41,153 bases of DNA from an uncultured Candidatus Saccharibacteria bacterium. GTDB lineage: Bacteria > Patescibacteriota > Dojkabacteria > B142 > OLB20. The notes beneath the pieces were generated by a model, which searched no databases, was not told the origin of the DNA, and saw only the letters and a list, made by a program, of their open reading frames with translations. Positions 14,054 to 38,089 of this stretch are shown here, piece after piece. The position numbers and the translations under genes are program-made. Position 1 is the stretch's first letter, and each line of letters opens with the position of its first letter. The stretch lies in the NCBI GenBank assembly GCA_964653475.1, contig CAZZFI010000001.1, positions 1 to 41,153 of the forward strand, in the 5' to 3' direction.

Positions 14054-14500
14054 TGGTGGAGATGGCGGGAATCGAACCCGCGTCCAAACCTGACCAAAAA
14101 CTACCCCTACAAGTTTAGTTAATTTGGTTTGAAACAGTTTGATCAAAATTAACAAAAGCCAAACTGCTTTGATTTATAAATTCTTGGAGTTTAAGCATAA
14201 ATCAAACTTAAACTTTGCACCTCGACTATATTGCTCCTCCTATTTCTCGCCGAGAATAGAAAATAGGAGAAGGTTGCCCTTTTAGTTAGGCAACAGCAAG
14301 GTTGACAGCTGGTTCTACACCAAAGAATGCAGCCACTTTCGCAGATGCACTATCAAACATTGCTATAAATTTGTTTTTGACGCTTATTGTCAAATCTCTG
14401 ATTGCTCAGAGCCATCATGTCTTTATTTAACGAAGCGACACAATGAACACATCGACTTGCGGCAATTCTCGGTTCCGATTTGTCGAAGCCGATCATCCCC
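14054..14500 (-). ncRNA. ssrA: tmRNA (SsrA)
   Basis: 5' GGGGATGATCGGCTTCGAC and 3' GGACGCGGGTTCGATTCCCGCCATCTCCACCA. The acceptor stem has the G3:U pair. The internal tag frame ends ...CCA GCT GTC AAC CTT GCT GTT GCC TAA (..PAVNLAVA-stop). Confidence 0.9.
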
Positions 14501-14620: not shown

Positions 14621-16051
14621 TTAACCTCTAAATACCCTCTGCCCTTCAGGAGTGTCTTCTACTACCACAGCGAATTCTTCTTTAAGCTTTTCGCGTAGTT
14701 GATCTGACTCATTCCAGTTACCAAGCTTTCTAGCAAGCTCTCTTTTATCTAACAGATCTCGGATTTCGTCTGTTAGTTCAATTTCATCATCTTTTATGAG
14801 ATCTAGTCCCAAAACCCTATCAAAATCAGTGATTGTAGCGATTTTAATATCATCATGCAGATCAGATTTTATAAGCTCCCAAAGTAAAGCTAATGCTTCA
14901 GGGATGTTGAAATCACTTTCTAATGCTTTCTTGAATCTTTGCTTGTATTCTTCAGACACTGTGCCGAATTTCTGCGAGTTCAAAAGTTTGATTTGTTTTT
15001 TTAATCGGTTGTAAGCTTGTTGTGAAGCTGAAAGTGCCTCCCAGGTAAAGTTTTGTTTTGAGCGATAATGTGCGTTAAGGTAAAAATATCTGAGTGCTAG
15101 GGGTTCGTAACCGTTATCTATTATATCGTCCAAGACAAAAGCAGTTCCCTCTGACTTGCTCATTTTTTTCCCGTCAAATAGAAGATGTTCGTTGTGTAGC
15201 CAGTAGTTGACAAACTTCGTTCCATTTGCAGACTCACTCTGTGCGATTTCGTTTGTATGGTGTATCGAGATATGTTCAACTCCTCCCATGTGCATATCGA
15301 TTGTAGCTCCTAAGATATCCCCAGCCATCGCACTACACTCGATATGCCATCCAGGAATTCCTTCCCCGTTTTCAACTTCCTTAGATTGAAATGGTGAAGG
15401 CCAATACTGCAAGGCGTTTTTGTGTGCACCAGTTTTGAAAAACCACAGAGCGAAGTCCTGTGGATTTTTTTTGTCTGGATCGACAACCTCTCCTTTCCCT
15501 AGTCCTGTTTTGTTTTTTTCGAGATTTTGTCCACTAAGTTTTGTGTAGTGGGAGAATCTTTCAACTTCAAAATAGATGGCTTTGTCTGTCGAATAAGCAA
15601 AACCTTTTTCAAGCAGAGTATTGATCATGCTTTGCATCTGCTCGATATACTGGCTGGCAACTGGTTTGTGGTCAGGAGGTAAAATATTTATAGCCTTTGT
15701 GTCTTTTTCGAAGATATCGATATATTTTTTCGCAATCTTTTGAGGATCGAGGTTCTCTCGCTTTGAAGCTTTTTCCATCCGATCTTCTCCCAGATCTGCA
15801 TCACCTAAATTATCTCCCGTAAGATGTCCAACATCTGTGTAGTTTCGAACGAAATTCACTTCATAACCGAGGTAAAGCAAACTTCTGCGAATTAAATCGG
15901 CCATAGTCATACCACGAAGATTTCCGATCTGCTGAACCCAATATACAGTAGGCCCGCAGTGATAAAACCTGACTTTATTGTCTTCGATAGGTTTAAAATC
16001 CTCAAGCTTTCTTGATATTGTGTTATAGACTTTTAGCATTGTGCTTATCAA
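14621..16051 (-). CDS. cysS: Cysteine--tRNA ligase
   Basis: CGPTVY..QIGNLR (HIGH region), NYTDVGHL...GEDRM, GWHIECSAM, HHTNEIAQSE, KMSKSEG. 476 aa including the anticodon-binding tail. Confidence 0.95.
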   Translation of the reverse strand: MISTMLKVYNTISRKLEDFKPIEDNKVRFYHCGPTVYWVQQIGNLRGMTMADLIRRSLLYLGYEVNFVRNYTDVGHLTGDNLGDADLGEDRMEKASKRENLDPQKIAKKYIDIFEKDTKAINILPPDHKPVASQYIEQMQSMINTLLEKGFAYSTDKAIYFEVERFSHYTKLSGQNLEKNKTGLGKGEVVDPDKKNPQDFALWFFKTGAHKNALQYWPSPFQSKEVENGEGIPGWHIECSAMAGDILGATIDMHMGGVEHISIHHTNEIAQSESANGTKFVNYWLHNEHLLFDGKKMSKSEGTAFVLDDIIDNGYEPLALRYFYLNAHYRSKQNFTWEALSASQQAYNRLKKQIKLLNSQKFGTVSEEYKQRFKKALESDFNIPEALALLWELIKSDLHDDIKIATITDFDRVLGLDLIKDDEIELTDEIRDLLDKRELARKLGNWNESDQLREKLKEEFAVVVEDTPEGQRVFRG

Positions 16052-18738: not shown

Positions 18739-21700
18739 ATGCTTCCAAAAGGACCTTATCAACCACAATTGACTGAAGGCGAAGTTCTCAAATTTTGGCT
18801 TGAGAATAAATTCTATGCGCCAGAGTACAAAAGTGACAAAAAGCTATCCACAGCTAGTCGAGAAGATAGAGAAAATTTCACAATAATCCTTCCACCACCA
18901 AACGCAAACGGAAACCTCCACCTTGGACATATGTCTGGCTACGCTTATCAAGATTTGATGGGACGATTTGAACGTATGCGTGGAAAGAAAGTACTTCTGC
19001 TACCCGGAAAAGATCACGCCGGAATACAAACGGAAGTTGTGTTCGAACGTGAACTTGAAAAGCAAGGGAAATCCAAAAAAGATATAGGTCGCGAGGAGTT
19101 TTACCGTCAGTGTTATGAGTTTTGTATGAAGCAGGCAGAGAACGCCAGGAGCCAGGAGCAGAAAATCGGACTTAGTGCAGACTTTGATCGTGAGTTGTTT
19201 ACGCTTGATCCGAAGATTGTTTCGGAAGTGATGAAGGCTTTTAAATTGATGTACGAAGATGGTCTCATCTACCGGGACAAAAGGATTATCAACTGGTGCC
19301 CACGGTGTCAGTCTGCTCTGGCTGATATTGATACTGAGTTTAAAGATACTGAGTTTAAAGATAAGAAGAGTCAGAGTCCGTTTTACTATTTTAAATACGG
19401 CTTTTTGGAACCTGACGAACTAGCAGTTAAATATAAAAATAAATATAGAAATAAATTGATATCTGTAGAAATCGAAACTCAATTGGAAGGAGAACCAGGG
19501 AAAAGTCACCATGAATTAGAAGAGTTAGATAGAACTCTGAGTGAGAATAAGGATCTATTCAACTACACTTCCGATTCTCCATATTTCTACCGTGGATTTG
19601 TACCATCGACAATTAACCCAGAGACCAGAACTGAGCTCGATGTATTAGTTATTGGTTATGAAGGATTACGACACGAAGATATTGTTGAAACAAAGGTTAT
19701 TGGTATTATTATGGATTTAAGCCATAGATATAAATTGTTTTGCATGAATCCGGACAGGGAATTATCAGAAGAGGATATAGGGAATTTTAAAAAATTTGTC
19801 TCTACAAAAACATCAGCTGGAGCACATTTAATTCTGTTTGATGAATACCCTGAAGACAAGTTCTACACCAATGGTTTCGTAATCGGCACAGTACGTCCTG
19901 AAACGAAATTCGGTGATACCGCATTGGCAGTCAATCCCGATGACGAAAGGTACAAAGATTATGTCGGTAAAGAGTTTGAGGTTATGACTCTAAACGGTCC
20001 TGCCAAGATAAAAGTGATTGCAGATAAAGCTGTACAAAAAGCAGAAGGAACAGGAATGCTGAAAGTGACACCAGCACATGCCATGGAGGACTGGGAGATT
20101 GCTCAAAGACACAAAGCAGACGCAATGCCTGAAAAGCAAGTGATTAACTTTGACGGCAAGCTAAACCACTTAACCGGCAAGTACGAAGGCATGACAGTTC
20201 AAGAAGCACGAAAAGCTATGATTTCAGACATGAGAGAAAACGGAATGCTAGTTTATCTCGACGAAAGTTATAAAAACCGAATCCGCATCTGCGAACGCTG
20301 CAAACATCCTATCGAGCCCTTGATCTCGTATCAGTGGTTTGTCGATACAAAACCTTTGAAAGCCGAAGCTAAGCGACTAGTAGAGAAAGGATTCACTGAA
20401 ATAATGCCGGAAGGCAAAAAGAAAACATATATGCAGTGGATGAATACCCCTGAAGACTGGTGCATCACAAGACAACTCTGGTGGGGCTATCGCCTACCCG
20501 TCTGGTATAAAGGCAAGCGTGAGCAATACATAACAGAAACCGGAGAAGTGAGAGAAAAAATTAACGACAAAATTATCGAGAAACCTGAAGATTATGAGGG
20601 GTTACTCAAAGTGGATGCAGAAAACCCTAATTCGGGTCCAACTATAGAACTTACAGTAATCCGCCACGCACAAAGCGAACACAATCTTGCAGGTGTATTT
20701 GCCGGCTCAACAGAGTCAGATTTAACACAAGAGGGACAAGCTAAAGCTGAAGAATTAGGCAAACAAATCAAAAATAACTTCGACGTAATTATTGCTTCTC
20801 CGATAAATAGAACCAAACAAACAGCGGAGTTATTAAATAGAAGTTTGAATTTGCCATTTGAAACAAATGACCTCCTTGTAGAGCGTTTCTATGGAAATCT
20901 TGAGGGTTTGACCTGGGATGAGTTTGAAAGAGAACATCCAGAAGAGGCATCCAAGAATTCAAAAAGCTTCCAGCCGAATTTAGAAAAAGGTGAATCAATA
21001 GAAGAAGTTGAAGCTAGAGTGGACAAGTTTATCGATTGGTTAAGAAAATCTGGTTATAAGAATCCTTTGGTTGTAACACATGCTGGGATTATGCGCATAA
21101 TCGAGAGGAAGTTAAACAACACTTCCCTTGATGAATCACGACAGATCCCATTCGAGAATCTCGAAATCCATAAATACACTATTCACGATAATGAGTGGCA
21201 ACAAGACGAAGACGTTTTAGATACTTGGTTCTCATCTGGACAGTGGCCTTTTGTCACTTTGATGGCTCACGAAGATGATTACGAAAATTTCTACCCTACT
21301 CAAGTCATGGAAACTGGTTGGGATATTTTGCTTTTCTGGGTAACTCGTATGATGCTTCTGAACCCTTATCGTTCAAAGAAGATAAATCCCGAAAGTTCAG
21401 AAAATAAGATCGTTCCTTTCAAGAATGTATATCTACACGGACTTGTTTTGGACAAGAATGGAATCAAGATGAGCAAGTCAAAAGGAAATGGGATCGATCC
21501 TTTTGAGATGATGCAAAAATACGGAACTGATGCTTTGAGATTTAGTTTTGTAAAAAGTAATTCAGTAGGACAAAACTACCGACTTTACGAGGAGAAGATT
21601 GCTTCCAACAGAAACTTCTGCAACAAAATCTGGAACGCCTCCAAATTTGTTTTGTTCAACATTGAAGACAACAAGGACAAACTTTCGAGTCTCAAGTTAG

Positions 21701-22095
21701 AAGATGTAAACTTGCAAAAAGACGATAAAGAATTTCTACAGCAAATAGAAGAATTAGTAAGCGAAACCACTAGAAGACTTACAGAATTTCAATTTGGAGT
21801 GGCAGCAGATGAGCTATACGATTCTTTCTGGCATAAATTTGCAGATGTTTATATCGAAAAGATAAAAACACGTCTTTACACAAAAGACCGCGATGGCAAT
21901 CCTATAAATGCCTCACCAGAAGAACAAGAAAGTAGACTAACTGCACAGTGGGTACTACTCTATTCACTCCAAACCTATTTGAAATTGCTACATCCATTTA
22001 TGCCGTTTATAACTGAGTCTATATGGCAAAGTCTTCCAAAGCAGGATGATGAATCGGAGACCATAATGTATTCTCAGTGGCCTGAAATAAGTTGA
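18739..22095 (+). CDS. valS: Valine--tRNA ligase with two large insertions, one of them a histidine-phosphatase domain
   Basis: PPPNANGNLHLGHM (HIGH), TVRPETKFGDTALAVNP and GTGMLKVTPAH (CP1 editing domain), QWFV, ITRQLWWGYRLPVWY, DVLDTWFSSGQWPF, KMSKSKGN. 1118 aa. Confidence 0.95.
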   Translation: MLPKGPYQPQLTEGEVLKFWLENKFYAPEYKSDKKLSTASREDRENFTIILPPPNANGNLHLGHMSGYAYQDLMGRFERMRGKKVLLLPGKDHAGIQTEVVFERELEKQGKSKKDIGREEFYRQCYEFCMKQAENARSQEQKIGLSADFDRELFTLDPKIVSEVMKAFKLMYEDGLIYRDKRIINWCPRCQSALADIDTEFKDTEFKDKKSQSPFYYFKYGFLEPDELAVKYKNKYRNKLISVEIETQLEGEPGKSHHELEELDRTLSENKDLFNYTSDSPYFYRGFVPSTINPETRTELDVLVIGYEGLRHEDIVETKVIGIIMDLSHRYKLFCMNPDRELSEEDIGNFKKFVSTKTSAGAHLILFDEYPEDKFYTNGFVIGTVRPETKFGDTALAVNPDDERYKDYVGKEFEVMTLNGPAKIKVIADKAVQKAEGTGMLKVTPAHAMEDWEIAQRHKADAMPEKQVINFDGKLNHLTGKYEGMTVQEARKAMISDMRENGMLVYLDESYKNRIRICERCKHPIEPLISYQWFVDTKPLKAEAKRLVEKGFTEIMPEGKKKTYMQWMNTPEDWCITRQLWWGYRLPVWYKGKREQYITETGEVREKINDKIIEKPEDYEGLLKVDAENPNSGPTIELTVIRHAQSEHNLAGVFAGSTESDLTQEGQAKAEELGKQIKNNFDVIIASPINRTKQTAELLNRSLNLPFETNDLLVERFYGNLEGLTWDEFEREHPEEASKNSKSFQPNLEKGESIEEVEARVDKFIDWLRKSGYKNPLVVTHAGIMRIIERKLNNTSLDESRQIPFENLEIHKYTIHDNEWQQDEDVLDTWFSSGQWPFVTLMAHEDDYENFYPTQVMETGWDILLFWVTRMMLLNPYRSKKINPESSENKIVPFKNVYLHGLVLDKNGIKMSKSKGNGIDPFEMMQKYGTDALRFSFVKSNSVGQNYRLYEEKIASNRNFCNKIWNASKFVLFNIEDNKDKLSSLKLEDVNLQKDDKEFLQQIEELVSETTRRLTEFQFGVAADELYDSFWHKFADVYIEKIKTRLYTKDRDGNPINASPEEQESRLTAQWVLLYSLQTYLKLLHPFMPFITESIWQSLPKQDDESETIMYSQWPEIS
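19330..19362 (+). repeat. Perfect 15-bp tandem duplication (2.2 copies) inside valS
   Basis: GATACTGAGTTTAAA GATACTGAGTTTAAA GAT encodes DTEFK-DTEFK-D. Confidence 0.95.
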
Positions 22096-22202: not shown

Positions 22203-23264
22203 CTAAGGTAGTATAACCGTAGTCGGTTTTGGGGTTGGCGTCCAAGTAGTGCTATAAATCGTTGGGGATACCGTGACGCTCGGTTTAGGAGTGTTAATTA
22301 CAGGTGTTGGAGTCGTAGAGATCCGTGGTGTAGGTAATGTTGTGTGAGTGGGAACAGCCTTAGACTCATTGATCTTTACATTCATAATCTTTTTCGATTT
22401 TACTGCAATCTTGTTTTTTTCCTGACACTTCTCGCAAGAAAATACTGTAACAGTTAAGCTCACTCTACATAATCCTTTGTTGTTTGCGGTGAAATATGCA
22501 GTACCTTCTTTGTAACTATTTGAATGGGTAGCATAAATAATTCTACAAGCAGGGGTCAATGCTTCCCAGGTCCACTTTAGACTGACATCTTCAGTATTCG
22601 TTAAGGGTAGATTTGCGATCTCGCTCTCAGCAAACCTTTTAGTTATCTCAAATCGCGAAGTATATATACTTGTTTTTTTTGGAAAAATGACATTGTTCAT
22701 CTTGTAATTCCTAACCCTTCTATACGGACTAATAACAGTTGAAATACTACCCTCGTCCTTACCTCCATTCATAACTGACATAGTTACCCCACAGTCTTTG
22801 GTTTTAATTACAACTGGAAAAGATATATACCAGCCCTCCCCTTCAACATCTTGCCCACAAATTGTTCCTTTCCATCTTATGGAGGAATTCTGGTTAGGAG
22901 TAGGTGTTAGTTGATAACCCCCATAGGTGGTCGGAGTTGGTTGAACACTTTTAGGACTCGGGGTACTTGTAGGTTGAGGAAGGCTAGCGGCATAAGAGAA
23001 ATCCAATGTAAATGATTCACCTTTGGCAACATATCTTGGATGACGTAAGTATATCCTTCCATTTTGCAGGGTCTTCATTTCAAAGATTGTGATAGGAGCA
23101 GCTTGATCATTTGTTGATGACACGTCAATATCTTCTTCAACTGCTGCACTGGCATCCTCAGTATCGAGATCTCTATTTACAAGTAGCATCCCGCCTATTG
23201 ATATTAATACGGTTACTATTATTACGAACGTTAACAAAAGAAATAATTTCTTCTTTCTATCCAT
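22203..23264 (-). CDS. Membrane-anchored extracellular protein with Pro/Thr-rich linkers
   Basis: N-terminal TM helix. Two globular segments separated by PQPTSTPSPKSVQPTPTT, with a PT-rich C-terminus. No known domain recognised. Confidence 0.6.
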   Translation of the reverse strand: MDRKKKLFLLLTFVIIVTVLISIGGMLLVNRDLDTEDASAAVEEDIDVSSTNDQAAPITIFEMKTLQNGRIYLRHPRYVAKGESFTLDFSYAASLPQPTSTPSPKSVQPTPTTYGGYQLTPTPNQNSSIRWKGTICGQDVEGEGWYISFPVVIKTKDCGVTMSVMNGGKDEGSISTVISPYRRVRNYKMNNVIFPKKTSIYTSRFEITKRFAESEIANLPLTNTEDVSLKWTWEALTPACRIIYATHSNSYKEGTAYFTANNKGLCRVSLTVTVFSCEKCQEKNKIAVKSKKIMNVKINESKAVPTHTTLPTPRISTTPTPVINTPKPSVTVSPTIYSTTWTPTPKPTTVILP

Positions 23265-23478: not shown

Positions 23479-25047
23479 TTACTGTTCTCTTACGCAGTAC
23501 TCAACTTCAACTCTGGAGTAGTGTGACTGAGCACATTTTTTCTGATTGCTCTTTTTATTTCCACCATTCGCTTTGAGACAAGCGTTGTATGAAGCATCGG
23601 TATAATCCAAAACACTATTTACCACAAGCCTGTCATACTTAGTTTCTGGGTTCAACACCCTTACATTGTCTATAACACCATTACTTTGCTCAATTCTAAG
23701 ATCCTTTCTGCATTCTAAGAATCTTTTTCTCAAAAGCTTTTCCGCTTGTTTTAAGGACACTTTAAGAAGCGGTTTTGTTCCATCGTTATATAAAGTTGTA
23801 TTTCCTAAGTCACCACAAAAGATAGATGCCGACTTAGTTGCAGAACTTTGGTTGTCAAGAAGTTTAACTAAAACATTATGTCTTTCATTATTTTGTACAA
23901 GACGATCATTACCTGACCCCTTTTGGTCTTTTGCTCCCGTCCATCCCCAGTATGCACTAACTTTAATATCGTGTTTTTTCGCAACTTCATTAAGTTGAAT
24001 ATCAGCTAGTTTATAATTTCTCTTGGAAGCATTGTGAGCTACAAATTCCCCTGAGTAGAAAATTCTAGTTTCTTTTTGGACACATGACTTAACTGCCGTT
24101 GTAGGAGCAACACTATGTGTGGGTTTGACTGTCGGAGTAACAGTTGGTGTAACGGTAGTCGGAGCCAATATATTTGTTGGAGGAACCGTAACAACAGGAC
24201 TCGGTTCTATTGTATCGACAGGTGGAGGGGTTAATGTAGGCAACAGTGGTTGATTACAAATTTCAAGATTATCTAGTGCAGCGGACCCGCTAAAATGTAG
24301 AGTGAATGTCTGAATACCTTGAGGGTAATTTTTTGTTGGAGCATGGTCGACTAATTTATTATTAACATCTATGTTTGCACCCGAAGTCAACATAACTTTT
24401 TCAGTTTTTCCTTGGGATACTACAGTGTAGTAATTATTGTTTATCCTACCCTGTTCTGCTTCATCTCCCATATCTATAGTGTCAAATCTTATCTGCGTGA
24501 CGTTTGCATTTTGGAATGTGAGAATCAAATATCCTCCATCATGATTATCTCTATTGAAGGTTCCAGATTCTGTGTAGACAGGCCTCTCATTTCCTGTATC
24601 GCTAAGTCGGTAGTGTTTTCCTCCGTTTAGAACCAAAACTCTTCCAGAATTAGCCCTCAAATCAGGAGTATTATTATTCCTATATGGATCCAAAACCATG
24701 ACATTTAGAACCTTGTATGGATCAGGATAATCCCCATTAGGTCGGACATTTTGTCCATATGAGACACCAATAGTTGTGGCTTTGAGAGAGCCAACATTTG
24801 GGGAGGTAAGGTTTGTAATTACTTGTCCGTGGTTAAAGTTATTAAAATCCCATTTATAACAACTTGGGGCTGCATTGGCAGAAATATCGGTTATGTCAGT
24901 TGCATTTCTAAACCAAGATATATTAACTACGTCTAGATAATATGCAACAGAGGAAAATATTATCAACACAAAAACTACAAGCATAATAGCTATAACCACA
25001 AGTTGATTTCGTGGTATAGACTCTCCTTTTTTTGAGGATTTCTTCAC
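23479..25047 (-). CDS. Membrane-anchored extracellular protein: N-terminal jelly-roll/lectin-like domain, PT linker, Cys-containing C-terminal domain
   Basis: TM helix, WDFNNFNHGQVI ... DGGYLILTFQNANVTQIRFDTIDMGDEAE (a pattern seen in secreted beta-sandwich domains), and the linker LPTLTPPPVDTIEPSPVVTVPPT...TPTVTPTVKPT. Confidence 0.6.
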   Translation of the reverse strand: MKKSSKKGESIPRNQLVVIAIMLVVFVLIIFSSVAYYLDVVNISWFRNATDITDISANAAPSCYKWDFNNFNHGQVITNLTSPNVGSLKATTIGVSYGQNVRPNGDYPDPYKVLNVMVLDPYRNNNTPDLRANSGRVLVLNGGKHYRLSDTGNERPVYTESGTFNRDNHDGGYLILTFQNANVTQIRFDTIDMGDEAEQGRINNNYYTVVSQGKTEKVMLTSGANIDVNNKLVDHAPTKNYPQGIQTFTLHFSGSAALDNLEICNQPLLPTLTPPPVDTIEPSPVVTVPPTNILAPTTVTPTVTPTVKPTHSVAPTTAVKSCVQKETRIFYSGEFVAHNASKRNYKLADIQLNEVAKKHDIKVSAYWGWTGAKDQKGSGNDRLVQNNERHNVLVKLLDNQSSATKSASIFCGDLGNTTLYNDGTKPLLKVSLKQAEKLLRKRFLECRKDLRIEQSNGVIDNVRVLNPETKYDRLVVNSVLDYTDASYNACLKANGGNKKSNQKKCAQSHYSRVEVEYCVREQ

Positions 25048-26979: not shown

Positions 26980-28782
26980 TCAGTCCTCCTTCTCCTCCAG
27001 CACTTTTTCTATCTCAAGCTTCTGAAAAAGTAACTCAACTTTTCCTAATTCCACCTTTGTGATTGTTTTCGATTCTCCATCCATGGTTTGATTGGTAATT
27101 GGGAGCCATAAAAACCTACCAACCTGAGGGGTTACTCTTTCTTGTCCAAGCATTGTCATTATTTTATCAGAGGTGTCAGGGAGGAATGGATAAATTAGTA
27201 CACCGAGGTCATAAATCAGATTGATTAAATTCATTAGTATTTGCTTAGCCTTTTCTTTGTCTGTTTTTATTACCTCCCAAACCTTTTGTTCATCGAAATA
27301 AACATTTCCCTTCCTAGCCACATCCATGACTTCATCTAGTGCTTTTACGATCCATGGACCATTCTTTCCTTCTGAATGAATGTCTTCAACTACTTTGTCG
27401 TCATAACTTAAAAACATCTTGACTCGCTCAAAATTTCCATCAGTTGAAATCGCACCTGAGTGCTCTAATGTATCTACCTCAATATTTCCGTCAAATTTGC
27501 TTTGGATAAAAGTCAGCGCCCTGTTCACAAGATTCCCCAAGTTCGCTACCAACTCGTTATTTATCACAAACACAAAGTCCTCCCAAGTGAAGTTTCCTTC
27601 TTTGTTTTCAGGCAAAGTTCGCGCAACGTAATATCTCACCAGGTCTACTCCGTACTTTTCTGCAATTTTTTTCGAGTCGATCGTCCAATTTCTACTCTTG
27701 CTGAATTTCTTCCCTTCGTAATTCAGAAATTTATTCACCACAACATACTTAGGCAAACTATGACCACTTTTCATCCCCATCAACTCTCCAGGCCACATCA
27801 GTGTGTGGAAAACCAGGTTGTCCTGTCCCATGAAGTTGTAGATTACCGAGTCTTCGTTTTTCCACCAGTCTTCCCAGTCGGTAGACTGTCCATCTTGTCG
27901 ATAAAATATGGTGTCTTCGTTACCTTCGGTCATCTTAGACCACTCCACAGCAGCTGAAAGGTAACCGATCACTGCTTCGAACCAAACATAGATCCTCTTT
28001 CCTTCGAAATTTTCGAGTTGTTTATCCTCTGAGAGTTTTTTGATATCCTCAATTGGCAATTCCATACTCCAGTCCATATCTCTCGTGATTGCTCGTTTCT
28101 GTAATCCTTCGCGAAGCCATCCATCAGCTTCTTTCCATACCCACTTTTTCCAGTCATCTTTGTGGCCGTCTAGATATGTTCTCAACTCGTCTTGGAGTTT
28201 TTGGAAATTTAGAAAATAATGCTCGGTATCTTTGAGAGTCACTTTAGAACCGGAAAGCTTACTGACTGGATTCAAGAGCTCTCCGTCTTTAAGCCAGCGA
28301 CCGCAGTTTTCACACTGGTCGCTTCTCTGGTTTTCAGCGTTGCAGTGAGGACAAGTCCCCTCTACATATCGATCAGGCAGAAACTGTTTGTCATCAATTG
28401 CATAATACTGCTGCATAGTTCCCTTCTCGATGTAACCATTTTCCAGAAGCTTTAGAAATACTTGGTGAACTACTTTTTTGTGTTCTTCAGAAGTTGTTTT
28501 CGTATAGAGGTTGTAGCTCAGTTTATACTGCTTGAAGAGCTCCAGGTCTTTTTTGTGATAGATGTCGACCACTTCTTTCGGCGACAAGCCCTTTTTATCA
28601 GCTTCAACGGTGATCGGGGTCCCATAGCAATCTGATCCCGACACCATCAAAACGTCATTGCCTAGCAGTCTGTGACACCTAGCAATAATATCGGCAGGTA
28701 AAAGATATCCGCCCAAATGACCAACGTGAATGTCTCCGTTAACGTAAGGCCACGCTACTCCGATTAGGATTTTTTTTGACAT
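26980..28782 (-). CDS. metG: Methionine--tRNA ligase
   Basis: WPYVNGDIHVGHLGG (HIGH), zinc knuckle CPHCNAENQRSDQCENCG, KFSKSRN (KMSKS). Confidence 0.95.
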   Translation of the reverse strand: MSKKILIGVAWPYVNGDIHVGHLGGYLLPADIIARCHRLLGNDVLMVSGSDCYGTPITVEADKKGLSPKEVVDIYHKKDLELFKQYKLSYNLYTKTTSEEHKKVVHQVFLKLLENGYIEKGTMQQYYAIDDKQFLPDRYVEGTCPHCNAENQRSDQCENCGRWLKDGELLNPVSKLSGSKVTLKDTEHYFLNFQKLQDELRTYLDGHKDDWKKWVWKEADGWLREGLQKRAITRDMDWSMELPIEDIKKLSEDKQLENFEGKRIYVWFEAVIGYLSAAVEWSKMTEGNEDTIFYRQDGQSTDWEDWWKNEDSVIYNFMGQDNLVFHTLMWPGELMGMKSGHSLPKYVVVNKFLNYEGKKFSKSRNWTIDSKKIAEKYGVDLVRYYVARTLPENKEGNFTWEDFVFVINNELVANLGNLVNRALTFIQSKFDGNIEVDTLEHSGAISTDGNFERVKMFLSYDDKVVEDIHSEGKNGPWIVKALDEVMDVARKGNVYFDEQKVWEVIKTDKEKAKQILMNLINLIYDLGVLIYPFLPDTSDKIMTMLGQERVTPQVGRFLWLPITNQTMDGESKTITKVELGKVELLFQKLEIEKVLEEKED

Positions 28783-37469: not shown

Positions 37470-38089
37470 TTATATAATTACACTGAATCCACTGAGATAA
37501 TCATACCTTTCATTACTATTTTCAACTAAATTCTGTAGTACCTTTTCTCCGGGTAATTTACTATGAAACTTTTGTTCAAAATATACTTTCATATACCTCA
37601 TAATAAAACCATGGGTTACAACTAGAATGTCCTTACTTTCGAATCTTGTTAAAATGCCGTCAAAATCTTGGATTCTTTTGTAGATTGACTCCAGAGACTC
37701 AATGCCAGCCTGATTTTCACCTATTGCTTTATAAAATTTTCCCTCAAAGGTTGAAGACCTAGCTCTTTATACTCCTTTTCTGTAATTAGATTACTCACAG
37801 AGAACTTAATCTCATCAATTTCCTTGATCACCAAGTCGGAATCAGTTAGTTCTTTCACCTTCGCAATCAACTTTGCTGTATCTACAGCCCTGAGAGACGG
37901 ACTGTGAAGAATAACATCATACCTTTCATCTAAATGGTGCGACTGGACTATAAGATCTATAGTGTGACTAGAAATATTTGGTTGAATTACCCCTCTTGCT
38001 AATTCATCAAGCTGCGTATAATTTAATTTATCATAGTTATCAAAAGGTTCTTCAAGTTGTGAGTGTCTAATAATCGTAACTTTACTCAT
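37470..38089 (-). pseudogene. Histidine phosphatase (PGM/CobC/SixA superfamily) gene split by a -1 frameshift
   Basis: The N-terminal ORF (37721-38089) has VTIIRHSQ and HSPSLRAVDTA. The -1 frame continues with ..AIGENQAGIESLESIYKRIQDF..ILVVTHGFIMRY.. to a TAA at 37470-37472. The switch is at the GGGAAAATTTTAT run. Confidence 0.7.

What the first reader, a model, noticed from the sequence alone, without database searches (positions are those of the whole stretch)
20620..21195. Apparently intact histidine-phosphatase domain nested inside the catalytic core of ValRS
Between the conserved ValRS core motifs RLPVWY and QDEDVLDTWFSS, E. coli ValRS has about 30 residues, from memory. This ORF has about 225. 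About 183 of them (nt 20641-21190) read as a complete branch-1 histidine phosphatase (PGM/CobC/SixA superfamily). The motifs are TVIRHAQSEHN (RH codons at 20662-20667), SPINRTKQTAELL, ERFYGNLEG and VVTHAGIMRII, so all catalytic positions appear occupied. Both junctions are in frame, and HIGH (HLGH) and KMSKS are intact. The gene therefore looks functional rather than a fusion artefact. I know of no described aaRS carrying a phosphatase module at this position. Possible roles include tRNA 3'-end or 2',3'-phosphate healing coupled to charging, or a moonlighting metabolic phosphatase in a reduced genome. All of these roles are speculative.
Basis: partly seen in the sequence, partly recalled or inferred. 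Interest (0 to 1): 0.78.

Follow-up and report, generated by a model that had tools for sequence, protein, structure and literature searches.

The report
Phosphatase domain nested inside valyl-tRNA synthetase
An uncultivated Dojkabacteria (CPR) bacterium has an apparently working valyl-tRNA synthetase with a complete, apparently active histidine phosphatase folded into a surface loop of its catalytic core, and this is one case of a wider, apparently undescribed habit of this lineage of hosting small enzyme modules inside tRNA-handling enzymes.

Summary
ORF 18739-22095 (+) encodes a 1118-aa ValRS, scoring above NCBIfam's valS equivalog cut-offs. It has a full Pfam His_Phos_1 domain at aa 639-821 (E 6e-43). 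The domain lies between RLPVWY and QDEDVLDTWFSS, where T. thermophilus ValRS and insert-free relatives have about 30 residues (the CP3 subdomain).

It is not an artefact. 49 of the 120 closest ValRS clusters carry the same nested domain, and 47 of those 49 keep all six catalytic residues. AlphaFold2 models host and insert confidently (pLDDT 87.9).

- Dojkabacteria ValRS has two insertion hotspots.
- CP3 hosts histidine phosphatase, alpha/beta-hydrolase, GNAT or HAD-like modules, singly or in tandem.
- A hairpin of the CP1 editing domain hosts an inorganic-pyrophosphatase-like module. It is present here at aa 225-376 and looks degenerate. In relatives it carries ASCH, HAD, Ham1 or DUF559.
- Related phosphatase domains are also nested in Dojkabacteria CCA-adding enzymes and, from a separate phosphatase clade, in IleRS at the same CP3 site.

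Best reading: an active ValRS tethered to an autonomous small-molecule phosphomonoesterase. The substrate is unknown, and a link to tRNA or nucleotide chemistry is suggested but unproven. No literature was found. I rate it a new variant of a known kind.

The parts
18739..22095 (+). Valyl-tRNA synthetase gene (1118 aa plus stop) that hosts both nested modules.
   Evidence: ORF. NCBIfam valS equivalogs PRK05729 score 757.5 (cut-off 704) and TIGR00422 scores 737.5 (cut-off 612.1). The best PDB sequence match is 1GAX ValRS, E 2.6e-134. The best Foldseek match of the AF2 model is also 1GAX, E 3.5e-49.
18919..18930 (+). HIGH signature (HLGH, aa 61-64).
   Evidence: Located. H61 and G63 are invariant in the 48-sequence alignment.
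19411..19866 (+). Site A insert (aa 225-376). It is a family I inorganic-pyrophosphatase-like module nested in the first beta-hairpin of the CP1 editing domain, and it is probably catalytically dead in this protein.
   Evidence: The insert sits at HMM column 226. 1GAX residues 194-208 span query aa 205-379. Pfam PF00719 scores E 7e-4, below its cut-off. A profile search against PDB sequences hits only pyrophosphatases. The AF2 model of the module gives Foldseek top-50 hits that are all family I PPases, E about 2e-4. Only 3 of 9 mapped PPase catalytic positions are kept.
19873..20256 (+). Core of the CP1 editing domain (aa 379-506).
   Evidence: Matches the isolated Thermus ValRS editing domain 1WKA/1WK9, E 2e-20. 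T384, R386, E388, G437-G439, H447 and D451 are invariant.
20452..20508 (+). CP2-CP3 linker and strand (EDWCITRQLWWGYRLPVWY, aa 572-590) immediately before the insertion point.
   Evidence: W574, R578, W581, W582, G583, Y584, P587 and Y590 are invariant. The homologous yeast IleRS segment 453-ARDWNVSRNRYWG-465 lines the tRNA-site pocket (PMC7955072).
20509..20646 (+). N-terminal part of CP3 (aa 591-636). It consists of short beta-strands and a linker leading into the phosphatase, and relatives with other cassettes share it.
   Evidence: AF2 strands 594-598, 604-608, 611-613 and 623-625. The 'ETGEV(K/R)EKI..DYxGLL' motif is conserved ahead of the Ser-hydrolase and His_Phos cassettes.
20647..21201 (+). 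Nested histidine phosphatase domain (aa 637-821, Pfam His_Phos_1). Catalytic set: R642 (20662-20664), H643 (20665-20667), N649 (20683-20685), R691 (20809-20811), E715 (20881-20883), H781 (21079-21081).
   Evidence: Pfam E 6e-43. The catalytic residues are invariant in 47 of 49 embedded homologues. AF2 pLDDT is about 87-95 across the domain.
21202..21237 (+). Return into the Rossmann fold (QDEDVLDTWFSS, aa 822-833).
   Evidence: Aligns to 1GAX from residue 447 onward. Q822, D823, D828, T829, W830, S832 and S833 are invariant.
21466..21480 (+). KMSKS signature (aa 910-914).
   Evidence: Located. K910, S912, K913 and S914 are invariant.
21724..22086 (+). Anticodon-binding domain (aa 996-1116). 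The protein ends here, without the C-terminal coiled-coil of canonical bacterial ValRS.
   Evidence: Pfam Anticodon_1, E 1e-27. The alignment stops at 1GAX residue 707 of 862 and at PRK05729 position 697 of 860.

Best explanation
The gene encodes the working ValRS of a Dojkabacteria (candidate division WS6, CPR/Patescibacteria) bacterium. Its CP3 subdomain is the variable hairpin between the WWGxRxPxWY strand and the DEDVLDTWFSS helix of the Rossmann fold. That hairpin has been opened at its tip to host a complete branch-1 histidine phosphatase.

Shown:
- The architecture is real.
- It recurs across the lineage.
- The ValRS signatures and the phosphatase catalytic set are both conserved.
- The insert is predicted to fold as its own domain.
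- It is one of several interchangeable enzyme cassettes at two permissive hairpins (CP3 and a CP1 hairpin).

Inferred:
- The polypeptide is bifunctional. ValRS charges tRNA-Val as usual.
- The tethered phosphatase hydrolyses a phosphomonoester through a phospho-His643 intermediate. R642, R691 and H781 would bind the phosphate, and E715 would act as proton donor.
- The size of the domain (about 185 aa, with the small helical cap at aa 724-771), its CobC/PhoE/PspA-like scores and its very acidic surface point to a small-molecule substrate rather than tRNA itself.
- Related phosphatase domains are nested again and again in enzymes that handle the tRNA 3' end and release pyrophosphate (ValRS, IleRS, CCA-adding enzyme). 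This suggests, without proving, that the substrate or the benefit is tied to nucleotide or tRNA chemistry.
- The patchy presence of cassettes among close relatives suggests gain and loss by recombination between alleles, using the conserved flanks of the host gene.
For: - ValRS is intact. The valS equivalog scores exceed their cut-offs. HIGH, KMSKS, the editing-site residues and the WWG/DTWF motifs are invariant in 48 aligned relatives. The best structural match is 1GAX.
- The phosphatase is intact. Pfam E is 6e-43. R642, H643, N649 and R691 are invariant in 49 of 49 embedded copies, E715 in 48 of 49 and H781 in 47 of 49. The domain itself has diverged to 22-60% identity and evolves faster than the host, for example 60% against 85% core identity for the nearest relative.
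- The AF2 full-length model has pLDDT 87.9 and pTM 0.73, with values of about 87-95 in the insert.
- The feature is real. The identical protein is in an independent Logan assembly. Homologues come from NCBI, JGI, ENA and Logan.
- Cassette behaviour. Only two insertion columns occur in 120 relatives. The contents were identified by Pfam. Presence and absence is patchy on the host tree.
- Association with tRNA enzymes. An exhaustive search of 1.84 billion representatives with the insert found 14 proteins carrying a non-phosphatase partner that were ValRS, IleRS or CCA-adding enzymes, against 2 with other identified partners (choline-kinase-like, NUDIX). Sixteen clusters of Dojkabacteria-type CCA-adding enzymes carry the domain after their HD domain. 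Their phosphatase domains nest among the ValRS ones in a neighbour-joining tree.
- Small-molecule leaning. The best family scores are CobC-like (TIGR03162, 113-117 bits), PspA and PhoE-type. Embedded domains have a median net charge of -9.5. The query has -14 and pI 4.9. Stand-alone relatives have -2.
Against: - No substrate is identified. All specific family scores fall below their cut-offs.
- No experiment or expression data exist.
- Two close relatives (P0002, P0004) have replaced the second catalytic His with Ser, so activity is not indispensable everywhere.
- The enrichment for tRNA enzymes could reflect which conserved genes tolerate, or recombine in, cassettes rather than function. The same ValRS sites also host GNAT, alpha/beta-hydrolase, ASCH and an endonuclease-like domain, which share no obvious chemistry with a phosphatase.
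- I could not verify that this is the only ValRS in the genome.
- The neighbour-joining tree has no support values.
- Net charge is a crude proxy for RNA binding.
Confidence: 0.6

Rival explanations
1. tRNA end-healing module acting in cis. The phosphatase removes a 2'- or 3'-phosphate left on the tRNA 3' end after nuclease or toxin damage, or after opening of a 2',3'-cyclic phosphate. The same polypeptide can then recharge the tRNA (ValRS, IleRS) or rebuild it (CCA-adding enzyme).
For: - Related phosphatase domains are nested in three different enzymes whose shared substrate is the tRNA 3' end: ValRS, IleRS and CCA-adding enzyme.
- In the CCA enzymes the domain sits directly after the HD domain. 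From my own knowledge, the E. coli HD domain has 2',3'-cyclic phosphodiesterase and phosphatase activities (Yakunin et al. 2004).
- NCBIfam itself names a 'multifunctional CCA addition/repair protein' family.
- CP3 begins right after the segment that lines the tRNA A76 pocket in IleRS (PMC7955072).
- HAD-type phosphatases, the fold of the T4 Pnkp 3'-phosphatase (my own knowledge), also occur as cassettes in these ValRS.
Against: - The embedded domains are strongly acidic (median net charge -9.5, query -14). That is more acidic than stand-alone relatives and is not what an RNA-docking surface looks like.
- To my knowledge, no branch-1 histidine phosphatase is known to act on RNA ends.
- The domain keeps the cap region typical of small-molecule members.
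- Mature tRNA damaged at A76 would need CCA repair before charging, so the benefit on ValRS is unclear.
- Other cassettes at the same site (GNAT, Ser-hydrolase) do not fit end healing.
- The distance between H643 and the A76 pocket could not be measured with the tools available.
Confidence: 0.2
2. Moonlighting copy of a specific known enzyme, fused to ValRS only for economy in a reduced genome. Candidates are alpha-ribazole phosphatase CobC, phosphoserine phosphatase PspA and cofactor-dependent phosphoglycerate mutase.
For: - The best-scoring specific models are CobC (TIGR03162, 113-117 bits), PspA (81-85 bits) and the RNase H/acid phosphatase fusion PRK07238 (86-88 bits).
- The best solved relatives are phosphoserine phosphatase 4IJ5 (E 1e-14) and CobC structures.
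Against: - Every specific model scores far below its curated cut-off: 163 for CobC, 350 for PspA and 225-421 for the dPGM models.
- Cobalamin synthesis is not expected in CPR bacteria (general knowledge).
- This explanation does not account for the same phosphatase clade also sitting in CCA-adding enzymes.
Confidence: 0.1
3. Functionless passenger. The domain is a tolerated, selfish or neutral insertion at a permissive loop. It persists because imprecise deletion would kill an essential gene.
For: - Cassettes of unrelated chemistry occupy the same two loops and come and go among close relatives.
- The insert evolves faster than the host.
- The neighbouring pyrophosphatase-like module has clearly degenerated in this protein, keeping 3 of 9 catalytic positions.
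- Two relatives have lost the second catalytic His.
- A DUF559 endonuclease-like domain is nested in one relative.
Against: - All six catalytic residues are retained in 47 of 49 copies even though the domain has diverged to about 25-40% identity. That pattern indicates purifying selection on catalysis, not drift.
- The degenerate PPase-like module shows what decay looks like here, and the phosphatase does not look like that.
Confidence: 0.08
4. Assembly chimera or sequencing artefact that joins a phosphatase gene into valS.
For: None beyond the general risk with metagenome contigs. Read mapping could not be done.
Against: - Both junctions are in frame.
- The identical 1118-aa protein is found on a separately assembled Logan contig.
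- 48 other clusters from four data sources have the same domain at the same site, at 40-75% identity.
- There is no GC break or repeat at the junctions.
Confidence: 0.01

Closest known systems
Canonical bacterial ValRS (T. thermophilus ValRS, PDB 1GAX)
   Same: It shares the class Ia Rossmann core with HIGH and KMSKS, the CP1 editing domain and the helical anticodon-binding domain. It is the best sequence and fold match. The valS equivalog cut-offs are met.
   Different: - CP3 is 231 residues instead of 30 and contains a whole phosphatase.
- A roughly 150-aa pyrophosphatase-like module splits the first hairpin of CP1.
- The C-terminal coiled-coil (1GAX after about residue 707) is absent.
CP1 editing domain of class Ia synthetases (ValRS/IleRS/LeuRS)
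   Same: It is the precedent for a hydrolytic domain nested in the Rossmann fold of the same enzymes. It is inserted as a connective polypeptide and leaves the host fold intact. The CP nomenclature is in PMC7191050 and PMC7955072.
   Different: CP1 is universal, ancient and acts on the enzyme's own products. The CP3 phosphatase is lineage-restricted, variably present, drawn from an unrelated superfamily, and has no demonstrated link to aminoacylation.
Small branch-1 histidine phosphatases (CobC alpha-ribazole phosphatase, PhoE, PspA phosphoserine phosphatase)
   Same: They share the size (about 175-210 aa), the RH...R...E...H catalytic set and the fold. They are the best family and PDB sequence hits for the insert. 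Stand-alone proteins of 184-187 aa are its nearest free-living relatives, at 36-39% identity.
   Different: - All specific family scores are below their cut-offs.
- The domain is nested inside another enzyme rather than free.
- It is much more acidic than stand-alone relatives.
Bifunctional RNase H/acid phosphatase (NCBIfam PRK07238; Rv2228c-type, from my own knowledge)
   Same: A CobC-like histidine phosphatase covalently joined to a nucleic-acid enzyme. The model hits the insert at 86-88 bits.
   Different: It is an end-to-end fusion, not a nested insertion. The partner is RNase H, not a tRNA enzyme. The score is far below the cut-off of 326.
IleRS carrying a GNAT domain (NCBIfam NF040702 'ileS_w_GNAT')
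   Same: It shows that curators already recognise a class Ia synthetase with an extra enzymatic domain. GNAT cassettes also occur in CP3 of Dojkabacteria ValRS.
   Different: The synthetase and the domain differ. The query scores 187 bits against a cut-off of 1999. I did not examine where the GNAT domain sits in that family.
Multifunctional CCA-adding/repair enzyme with HD phosphohydrolase domain (NCBIfam PRK10885)
   Same: A tRNA 3'-end enzyme that carries its own phosphoesterase. Dojkabacteria versions add a nested His_Phos_1 domain closely related to the ValRS one.
   Different: The host enzyme is different. The HD domain is a different fold. The repair role of the HD domain is known only for E. 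coli (my own knowledge) and was not tested here.

Membership tests
Valine--tRNA ligase (class Ia aaRS) | Score above the curated equivalog cut-offs of the valS models. | tested here: met
   PRK05729 scores 757.5 against 704. TIGR00422 scores 737.5 against 612.1. The ileS model scores only 363.7 against 621.4.
Valine--tRNA ligase (class Ia aaRS) | HIGH and KMSKS signatures present. | tested here: met
   HLGH at aa 61-64 and KMSKS at aa 910-914. They are invariant among 48 relatives.
Valine--tRNA ligase (class Ia aaRS) | CP1 editing domain with the Thr-rich (TxRPET) motif and the conserved Asp of the GTG...PAHxxxD motif. | tested here: met
   GTVRPET at aa 382-388 and GTGMLKVTPAHAMED at aa 437-451. 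T384, R386, E388, H447 and D451 are invariant. The region matches 1WKA, E 2e-20. The role of these residues is from my own knowledge.
Valine--tRNA ligase (class Ia aaRS) | C-terminal coiled-coil domain of bacterial ValRS. | tested here: not met
   The protein ends at 1GAX position 707 of 862 and model position 697 of 860. The insert-free relatives of 751-790 aa also lack it. This is a lineage trait and does not argue against ValRS identity.
Valine--tRNA ligase (class Ia aaRS) | Aminoacylation of tRNA-Val. | not testable with these tools
   Requires biochemistry.
Histidine phosphatase superfamily, branch 1 (Pfam PF00300) | Score above the Pfam gathering threshold over nearly the whole model. 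| tested here: met
   147.2 bits against 21.7, profile positions 2-187 of 194.
Histidine phosphatase superfamily, branch 1 (Pfam PF00300) | Catalytic core: RH(G) nucleophile His, two further Arg/His phosphate ligands, Glu proton donor. | tested here: met
   R642, H643, N649, R691, E715 and H781 are present, and all six are kept in 47 of 49 embedded homologues. The motif is RHA rather than RHG.
Histidine phosphatase superfamily, branch 1 (Pfam PF00300) | Alpha/beta fold predicted as an independent domain. | tested here: met
   The AF2 full-length model has pLDDT of about 87-95 over aa 635-816, with alternating strands and helices. I made no separate fold search of the domain.
Histidine phosphatase superfamily, branch 1 (Pfam PF00300) | Phosphatase or mutase activity through a phospho-His intermediate. 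| not testable with these tools
   Requires an enzyme assay with an H643 mutant.
Alpha-ribazole phosphatase CobC (TIGR03162) | Equivalog cut-off of 162.9 bits. | tested here: not met
   113.3 bits in the full protein and 116.7 bits for the insert alone.
Cofactor-dependent phosphoglycerate mutase (dPGM models) | Equivalog cut-offs of 225-421 bits. | tested here: not met
   Best score is 64-69 bits (NF038349). Matches cover only the N-terminal two thirds.
Phosphoserine phosphatase PspA (NF045917) | Equivalog cut-off of 350 bits. | tested here: not met
   81-85 bits.
Phosphohistidine phosphatase SixA (TIGR00249) | Equivalog cut-off of 74.5 bits. | tested here: not met
   26.4 bits, N-terminal third only.
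Family I inorganic pyrophosphatase (site A module, aa 225-376) | Pfam PF00719 gathering threshold of 23.5 bits. | tested here: not met
   19.9 bits, E 7e-4, for the module alone.
Family I inorganic pyrophosphatase (site A module, aa 225-376) | PPase fold. | tested here: met
   A profile search against PDB sequences hits only PPases (1QEZ at E 1.4e-3, plus 3D53 and 5TEA). The Foldseek top-50 hits are all family I PPases, E about 2e-4, probability 1.0 and TM 0.33-0.44.
Family I inorganic pyrophosphatase (site A module, aa 225-376) | Acidic metal-binding residues and Lys/Arg of the active site (E. coli K29, R43, Y55, D65, D67, D70, D97, D102, K104; numbering from my own knowledge). | tested here: not met
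   The query keeps 3 of 9 (signature KTRTTDSRK). Nine relatives (P0024, P0026, P0029, P0030, P0034, P0036, P0038, P0040, P0043) keep 8-9 of 9. The mapping rests on motif alignment at low identity.
Intein or other self-splicing insertion | Hint/intein splicing domain or homing endonuclease within the insert. | tested here: not met
   A Pfam scan of the whole protein and of the insert finds only His_Phos_1 in aa 591-821.

The most novel reading that the evidence does not exclude
Dojkabacteria may use the conserved genes of tRNA 3'-end enzymes (ValRS, CCA-adding enzyme and, in another lineage, IleRS) as landing pads for swappable enzyme cassettes. The cassettes seen are histidine phosphatase, pyrophosphatase, HAD, alpha/beta-hydrolase, GNAT, ASCH and Ham1. 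Together they would form built-in product-removal and tRNA- or nucleotide-maintenance stations. On this reading the nested phosphatase acts in cis on a product or damaged substrate of the host enzyme, for example a nucleotide monophosphate or a phosphorylated tRNA end. The cassettes would spread between strains by homologous recombination through the invariant flanking motifs.
Probability: 0.2. Interest if true: 0.85.

Novelty: new variant of a known kind. Interest (0 to 1): 0.7.

Why it matters
Aminoacyl-tRNA synthetases are among the most conserved enzymes known. Apart from the ancient CP1 editing domain, bacterial ones are not known to carry a second catalytic domain nested in the Rossmann fold.

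Here a whole lineage shows:
- two defined, permissive hairpins in ValRS that accept complete enzymes
- a menu of at least eight different cassette types
- the same phosphatase clade in the CCA-adding enzyme
- an independent, convergent insertion of tandem phosphatases at the same CP3 site of IleRS.

If the modules act on the host enzyme's products, this would be a new form of substrate channelling or tRNA maintenance in ultra-small cells. The pyrophosphatase-like module is the obvious candidate, since it could remove PPi.

If they do not, it is a clean natural example of domain insertion, exchange and decay inside an essential gene. It also gives protein engineers two validated insertion sites in a class I synthetase.

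There is a practical consequence for annotation. These genes are misnamed in public records as 'class I tRNA ligase family protein' or even 'HAD-IA family hydrolase'. That can make CPR genomes look as if they lack valS.

Tried and rejected
- **Genome scan.** I scanned the GTDB species genomes with the full protein. The back-translated patterns hit ordinary ValRS of Firmicutes, Proteobacteria and other phyla.
- **Word-indexed search with the insert alone.** It returned a single 156-aa fragment. The exhaustive representative search replaced it.
- **Literature.** Seven full-text searches found nothing on nested phosphatase or other cassettes in ValRS, IleRS or CPR synthetases. The seventh served only for CP3 nomenclature.
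- **Insertion scars.** I found no direct or inverted repeats and no GC or skew break around the insert.
- **Intein or mobile intron.** Rejected: there is no Hint or endonuclease domain and the reading frame is continuous.
- **Specific enzyme identities.** CobC, dPGM, PspA and SixA are rejected as memberships on curated cut-offs.
- **Alignment of the site A module to E. coli PPase with MAFFT.** It misplaced key columns. I discarded it in favour of motif-anchored mapping.
- **Taxon names for the IleRS and tandem-phosphatase proteins.** None were available.
- **Geometry.** The distance between the phosphatase active site and the tRNA A76 pocket could not be measured, because model coordinates are not exposed.


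Full report
**1. Observation**

The window holds one uninterrupted ORF, 18739-22095 on the + strand, encoding 1118 aa. Pfam finds tRNA-synt_1 (E 4e-113), Anticodon_1 (E 1e-27) and a nearly full-length His_Phos_1 domain at aa 639-821 (E 6e-43, 147 bits against a cut-off of 21.7). NCBIfam's valS equivalogs are passed: PRK05729 scores 757.5 against 704 and TIGR00422 scores 737.5 against 612.1. The ileS model fails.

Against T. thermophilus ValRS (1GAX), the query aligns in three blocks:
- aa 41-205 to 1GAX 30-194
- aa 379-590 to 1GAX 208-416
- aa 821-1116 to 1GAX 447-707

So 231 residues replace the 30 residues 417-446 of the Thermus enzyme.

**2. Not an artefact**

- The identical protein is encoded on a separately assembled Logan contig (SRR9016298, 9.5 kb).
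- Among the 120 best-scoring ValRS clusters in a 5.8-billion-protein collection, many carry PF00300, and they come from NCBI, JGI, ENA and Logan data.
- A phmmer and MAFFT analysis finds the domain in 49 of these 120.
- No repeats flank the insert, and GC content (0.37-0.42) and skews are continuous with the rest of the gene.

Named relatives are 'Candidatus Dojkabacteria bacterium' or 'candidate division WS6 bacterium OLB21'. The organism is therefore a Dojkabacteria (CPR/Patescibacteria) bacterium.

**3. Where the insert sits**

I built an HMM from the 15 relatives that have no extra material (751-790 aa) and aligned all 120 proteins to it. Large insertions occur at only two places: column 226 (site A) and columns 451-481 (site B). 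Site B is the finding.

In the nomenclature used for the sister enzyme IleRS, the segment between the WG.P.P.W strand and the D.WF.SG helix is the CP3 subdomain. Its topology is variable, and it has a zinc motif in Thermus IleRS (PMC7191050). In yeast IleRS, CP3 is residues 459-526. The preceding linker, 453-ARDWNVSRNRYWG-465, lines the pocket where the tRNA 3' end binds (PMC7955072). The query's homologous linker is EDWCITRQLWWG (aa 572-583).

The AlphaFold2 model of the full protein was built from a 48-sequence alignment and has mean pLDDT 87.9 and pTM 0.73. It shows:
- the RLPVWYK strand (585-591)
- a few short strands of native CP3 (594-625)
- the phosphatase from strand 635-642 to strand 810-816, with pLDDT of about 87-95
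- a return strand (820-828) into the DTWF helix

The best structural neighbour of the whole model is 1GAX (E 3.5e-49). The phosphatase is therefore nested at the tip of the CP3 hairpin.

**4. Are both enzymes intact?**

In the 48-sequence alignment the following are invariant:
- H61 and G63 of HIGH
- K910, S912, K913 and S914 of KMSKS
- T384, R386 and E388 of the editing Thr-rich motif
- G437, T438, G439, H447 and D451 of the editing GTG...PAH...D motif
- W581, W582, G583 and D828, T829, W830

For the phosphatase, R642, H643, N649 and R691 are invariant in 49 of 49 embedded copies. E715 is kept in 48 of 49 (one Asp). H781 is kept in 47 of 49; P0002 and P0004 have Ser. This holds although the domain has diverged to 22-60% identity and evolves faster than the host core. 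For example, the nearest relative shows 60% identity in the domain against 85% in the core. That pattern is purifying selection on catalysis.

Specific enzyme identities are not supported. CobC (113-117 bits against 163), PspA (81-85 against 350), the dPGM models (69 bits or less against 225-421) and SixA (26 against 74.5) all fail their cut-offs.

**5. The wider picture: a cassette system**

Pfam scans of representative inserts show the following.

Site B (CP3) holds:
- His_Phos_1 alone
- a Ser_hydrolase (PF06821) alpha/beta-hydrolase alone
- GNAT alone
- tandems: Ser_hydrolase + His_Phos_1, GNAT + His_Phos_1, GNAT + Ser_hydrolase, GNAT + HAD-like

The order within tandems is always GNAT, then Ser_hydrolase, then His_Phos_1.

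Site A holds a common module of about 115-150 aa in most relatives. Nested beside or instead of it are:
- DUF559 (E 1e-31)
- HAD (E 3e-18)
- ASCH (weak hits; best E 1.7e-4)
- Ham1 (E 2e-8)

On a neighbour-joining tree of the host core, presence and absence is patchy among close relatives. The query has His_Phos_1. P0002, P0004 and P0008 (79-84% core identity) have Ser_hydrolase + His_Phos_1. P0021, P0022, P0023 and P0025 have nothing at site B. At short range, phosphatase similarity follows host similarity. The simplest account is therefore vertical descent with clean losses and gains of whole modules.

**6. The second insert in this very protein**

Site A in the query is aa 225-376. It splits the first beta-hairpin of the CP1 editing domain: query aa 205 and 379 correspond to 1GAX residues 194 and 208. 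Three lines of evidence identify its fold as family I inorganic pyrophosphatase:
- a sub-threshold Pfam PF00719 hit (E 7e-4)
- a 28-sequence profile whose only hits among all PDB sequences are pyrophosphatases (1QEZ at E 1.4e-3, plus 3D53 and 5TEA)
- an AF2 model of the module (pLDDT 81) whose top 50 Foldseek hits are all family I pyrophosphatases (E about 2e-4, probability 1.0, TM 0.33-0.44)

I mapped nine active-site positions by conserved motifs, using E. coli numbering from my own knowledge. Nine relatives keep 8-9 of 9. The query keeps only 3 of 9. In this protein the module is probably a structural relic. In the P0024-type clade it may still remove the PPi that ValRS produces. This also shows what decay looks like in this system, and the histidine phosphatase does not show it.

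**7. The phosphatase in other tRNA enzymes**

An exhaustive phmmer search of 1.84 billion representative proteins with the insert gave 18,981 hits. The best 150 fall into three groups:
- ValRS-embedded copies
- proteins of about 405-430 aa with two phosphatase domains in tandem
- minimal stand-alone proteins of about 175-190 aa (35-39% identical)

- P0133, P0153 and P0209 are IleRS, scoring 761-857 on TIGR00392 against 621.
- P0162, P0173, P0200 and P0239 are IleRS-type or fragments.
- All of these IleRS proteins carry two phosphatase domains. In P0153, P0173 and P0239 the host match breaks at profile positions 266-288 of tRNA-synt_1, which is CP3. In P0133 one of the two copies instead lies after the catalytic domain.
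- P0139, P0178 and P0205 are further ValRS.
- P0154 is a CCA-adding enzyme with the phosphatase nested after its HD domain.
- Only two hits had other identified partners (choline-kinase-like and NUDIX).

A search with P0154 found 16 clusters of CCA-adding enzymes with the nested domain. Their closest insert-free relatives are named Candidatus Dojkabacteria.

In a neighbour-joining tree of 267 phosphatase domains:
- The CCA-embedded copies nest among the ValRS-embedded ones. Their mean distance to the ValRS copies is 1.24, against 1.53 to stand-alone proteins.
- The IleRS copies group with the tandem proteins, which points to a separate origin.

The tree has no support values, so treat it as indicative.

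**8. Mechanism**

Shown:
- The polypeptide is an intact ValRS with an intact phosphatase.
- The phosphatase is under selection for its catalytic residues.
- It is an exchangeable module.

Inferred:
- It is bifunctional. The phosphatase works by the family's standard phospho-histidine mechanism: H643 as nucleophile, R642, R691 and H781 as phosphate ligands, and E715 as acid.
- On the substrate, the recurrent nesting in three enzymes that bind the tRNA 3' end and release PPi argues for a link to tRNA or nucleotide chemistry. So does the position right after the A76-pocket linker.
- However, the embedded domains are strikingly acidic. Their median net charge is -9.5, and the query has -14 and pI 4.9. 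Stand-alone relatives have -2. The domain also keeps the cap region of small-molecule members.

I therefore favour a tethered small-molecule phosphomonoesterase (confidence 0.6 for the whole statement). A cis-acting tRNA-end phosphatase comes second (0.2). The other rivals are a specific known enzyme moonlighting (0.1), a functionless passenger (0.08) and an assembly artefact (0.01).

The host bias could also have an evolutionary rather than a functional cause. Highly conserved flanks such as RLPVWY and QDEDVLDTWFSS provide homology arms for exchanging cassettes between strains. This is my inference and is untested.

**9. Novelty**

Proteins with this architecture are already in public databases, for example UniRef A0A136KHP0 'valine--tRNA ligase' from WS6 bacterium OLB21. 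Others are misnamed 'class I tRNA ligase family protein' or 'HAD-IA family hydrolase'.

Seven full-text searches of 8 million papers and preprints found no description of a phosphatase or any other cassette nested in ValRS, IleRS or CPR synthetases. Subscription-only literature was not searched.

Extra domains on synthetases are a known theme. CP1 is itself a nested hydrolase, and NCBIfam has an IleRS-with-GNAT model. I therefore rate this a new variant of a known kind, not a new category.

**10. Limits**

- There is no whole-genome context: the one genome scan was wasted.
- I could not measure inter-domain geometry.
- There are no read data and no experiments.
- The PPase residue mapping and the domain trees rest on low-identity alignments.

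Noticed in passing
window 19411-19866 (+), aa 225-376 of the ValRS: A second nested module splits the first hairpin of the CP1 editing domain. It has a family I inorganic-pyrophosphatase-like fold (Pfam sub-threshold hit, profile search against PDB sequences, AF2 plus Foldseek). Only 3 of 9 mapped catalytic positions are kept here, so it is probably inactive. Nine relatives (P0024 type) keep 8-9 of 9 and might be real ValRS-PPase fusions.
   Followed up: yes
relatives P0002-P0118 (one search set); site A = HMM column 226, site B = columns 451-481: Dojkabacteria ValRS carries interchangeable cassettes at two hotspots. Site B holds His_Phos_1, Ser_hydrolase (PF06821), GNAT and HAD-like modules. 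Site A holds PPase-like, ASCH, HAD, Ham1 and DUF559 modules. They occur singly or in tandem, in a fixed order (GNAT, then Ser_hydrolase, then His_Phos_1), and are distributed patchily among close relatives.
   Followed up: partly
L082:2068-4206 (P0154) and P0289-P0304: CCA-adding enzymes of Dojkabacteria type (654-715 aa, 16 clusters) have a His_Phos_1 domain nested after the HD domain. These domains group with the ValRS-embedded ones in a neighbour-joining tree.
   Followed up: partly
P0133, P0153, P0162, P0173, P0200, P0209, P0239 (one search hits): IleRS proteins of archaeal/eukaryote type (four of them, P0133, P0153, P0173 and P0200, with a DUF5915 C-terminus; P0239 also has it) carry two His_Phos_1 domains, mostly in tandem at the same CP3 site. 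These domains belong to a different phosphatase clade that also occurs as free tandem proteins of about 410-430 aa. P0139, a ValRS fragment, has four phosphatase stretches. The host organisms are unknown.
   Followed up: partly
window 37470-38089 (-): A second, divergent His_Phos_1-like gene lies directly after the PPDK-like gene. It is split by a frameshift near 37725-37766, at a gggaaaatttt run. The conceptually repaired 206-aa product scores 45 bits on PF00300 and has IIRHSQ and VVTHGF motifs. It could be a pseudogene or an assembly error.
   Followed up: partly
window 21724-22095 (+), C-terminus of the ValRS: The ValRS ends right after the anticodon-binding domain and lacks the C-terminal coiled-coil of canonical bacterial ValRS. 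The insert-free relatives (751-790 aa) lack it too, so it is a lineage trait.
   Followed up: partly
relatives P0002 and P0004 (closest Ser_hydrolase + His_Phos_1 forms): The second catalytic histidine (H781 equivalent) is replaced by Ser, giving VTSAG instead of VTHAG. This suggests loss or change of phosphatase activity in that sub-branch.
   Followed up: partly
relative P0054, site A: A DUF559 (Vsr/restriction-endonuclease-like, E 1e-31) domain is nested next to the PPase-like module inside ValRS. It may hint at a mobile-DNA origin for some cassettes.
   Followed up: no
window 14054-14500 (-): A tmRNA gene (Rfam RF00023, 131.7 bits; also found by ARAGORN) with an unusually long predicted tag peptide, VKNKFIAMFDSASAKVAAFFGVEPAVNLAVA.
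   Followed up: no
window 14621-16051 (-) and 26980-28782 (-): CysRS (476 aa) and MetRS (600 aa) are encoded in the same window. Neither shows an extra Pfam domain, so the cassette habit is not general to all class I synthetases of this genome.
   Followed up: partly
window 22203-23264 (-) and 23479-25047 (-): Two large ORFs (353 and 522 aa) immediately downstream of valS have no Pfam hits. Each has an N-terminal hydrophobic segment and Pro/Thr-rich tracts. They are probably secreted or surface proteins.
   Followed up: no
window 38082-40667 (-): An 861-aa protein has only the PPDK_N ATP-grasp part and a PEP-utilizers mobile domain. It is a PEP synthase/PPDK-like enzyme, and the frameshifted His_Phos_1-like gene follows it with overlapping stop and start codons.
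   Followed up: no
database records for relatives: Insert-bearing ValRS proteins are annotated in NCBI as 'class I tRNA ligase family protein' or 'HAD-IA family hydrolase' (P0072). This could make these genomes appear to lack valS.
   Followed up: no
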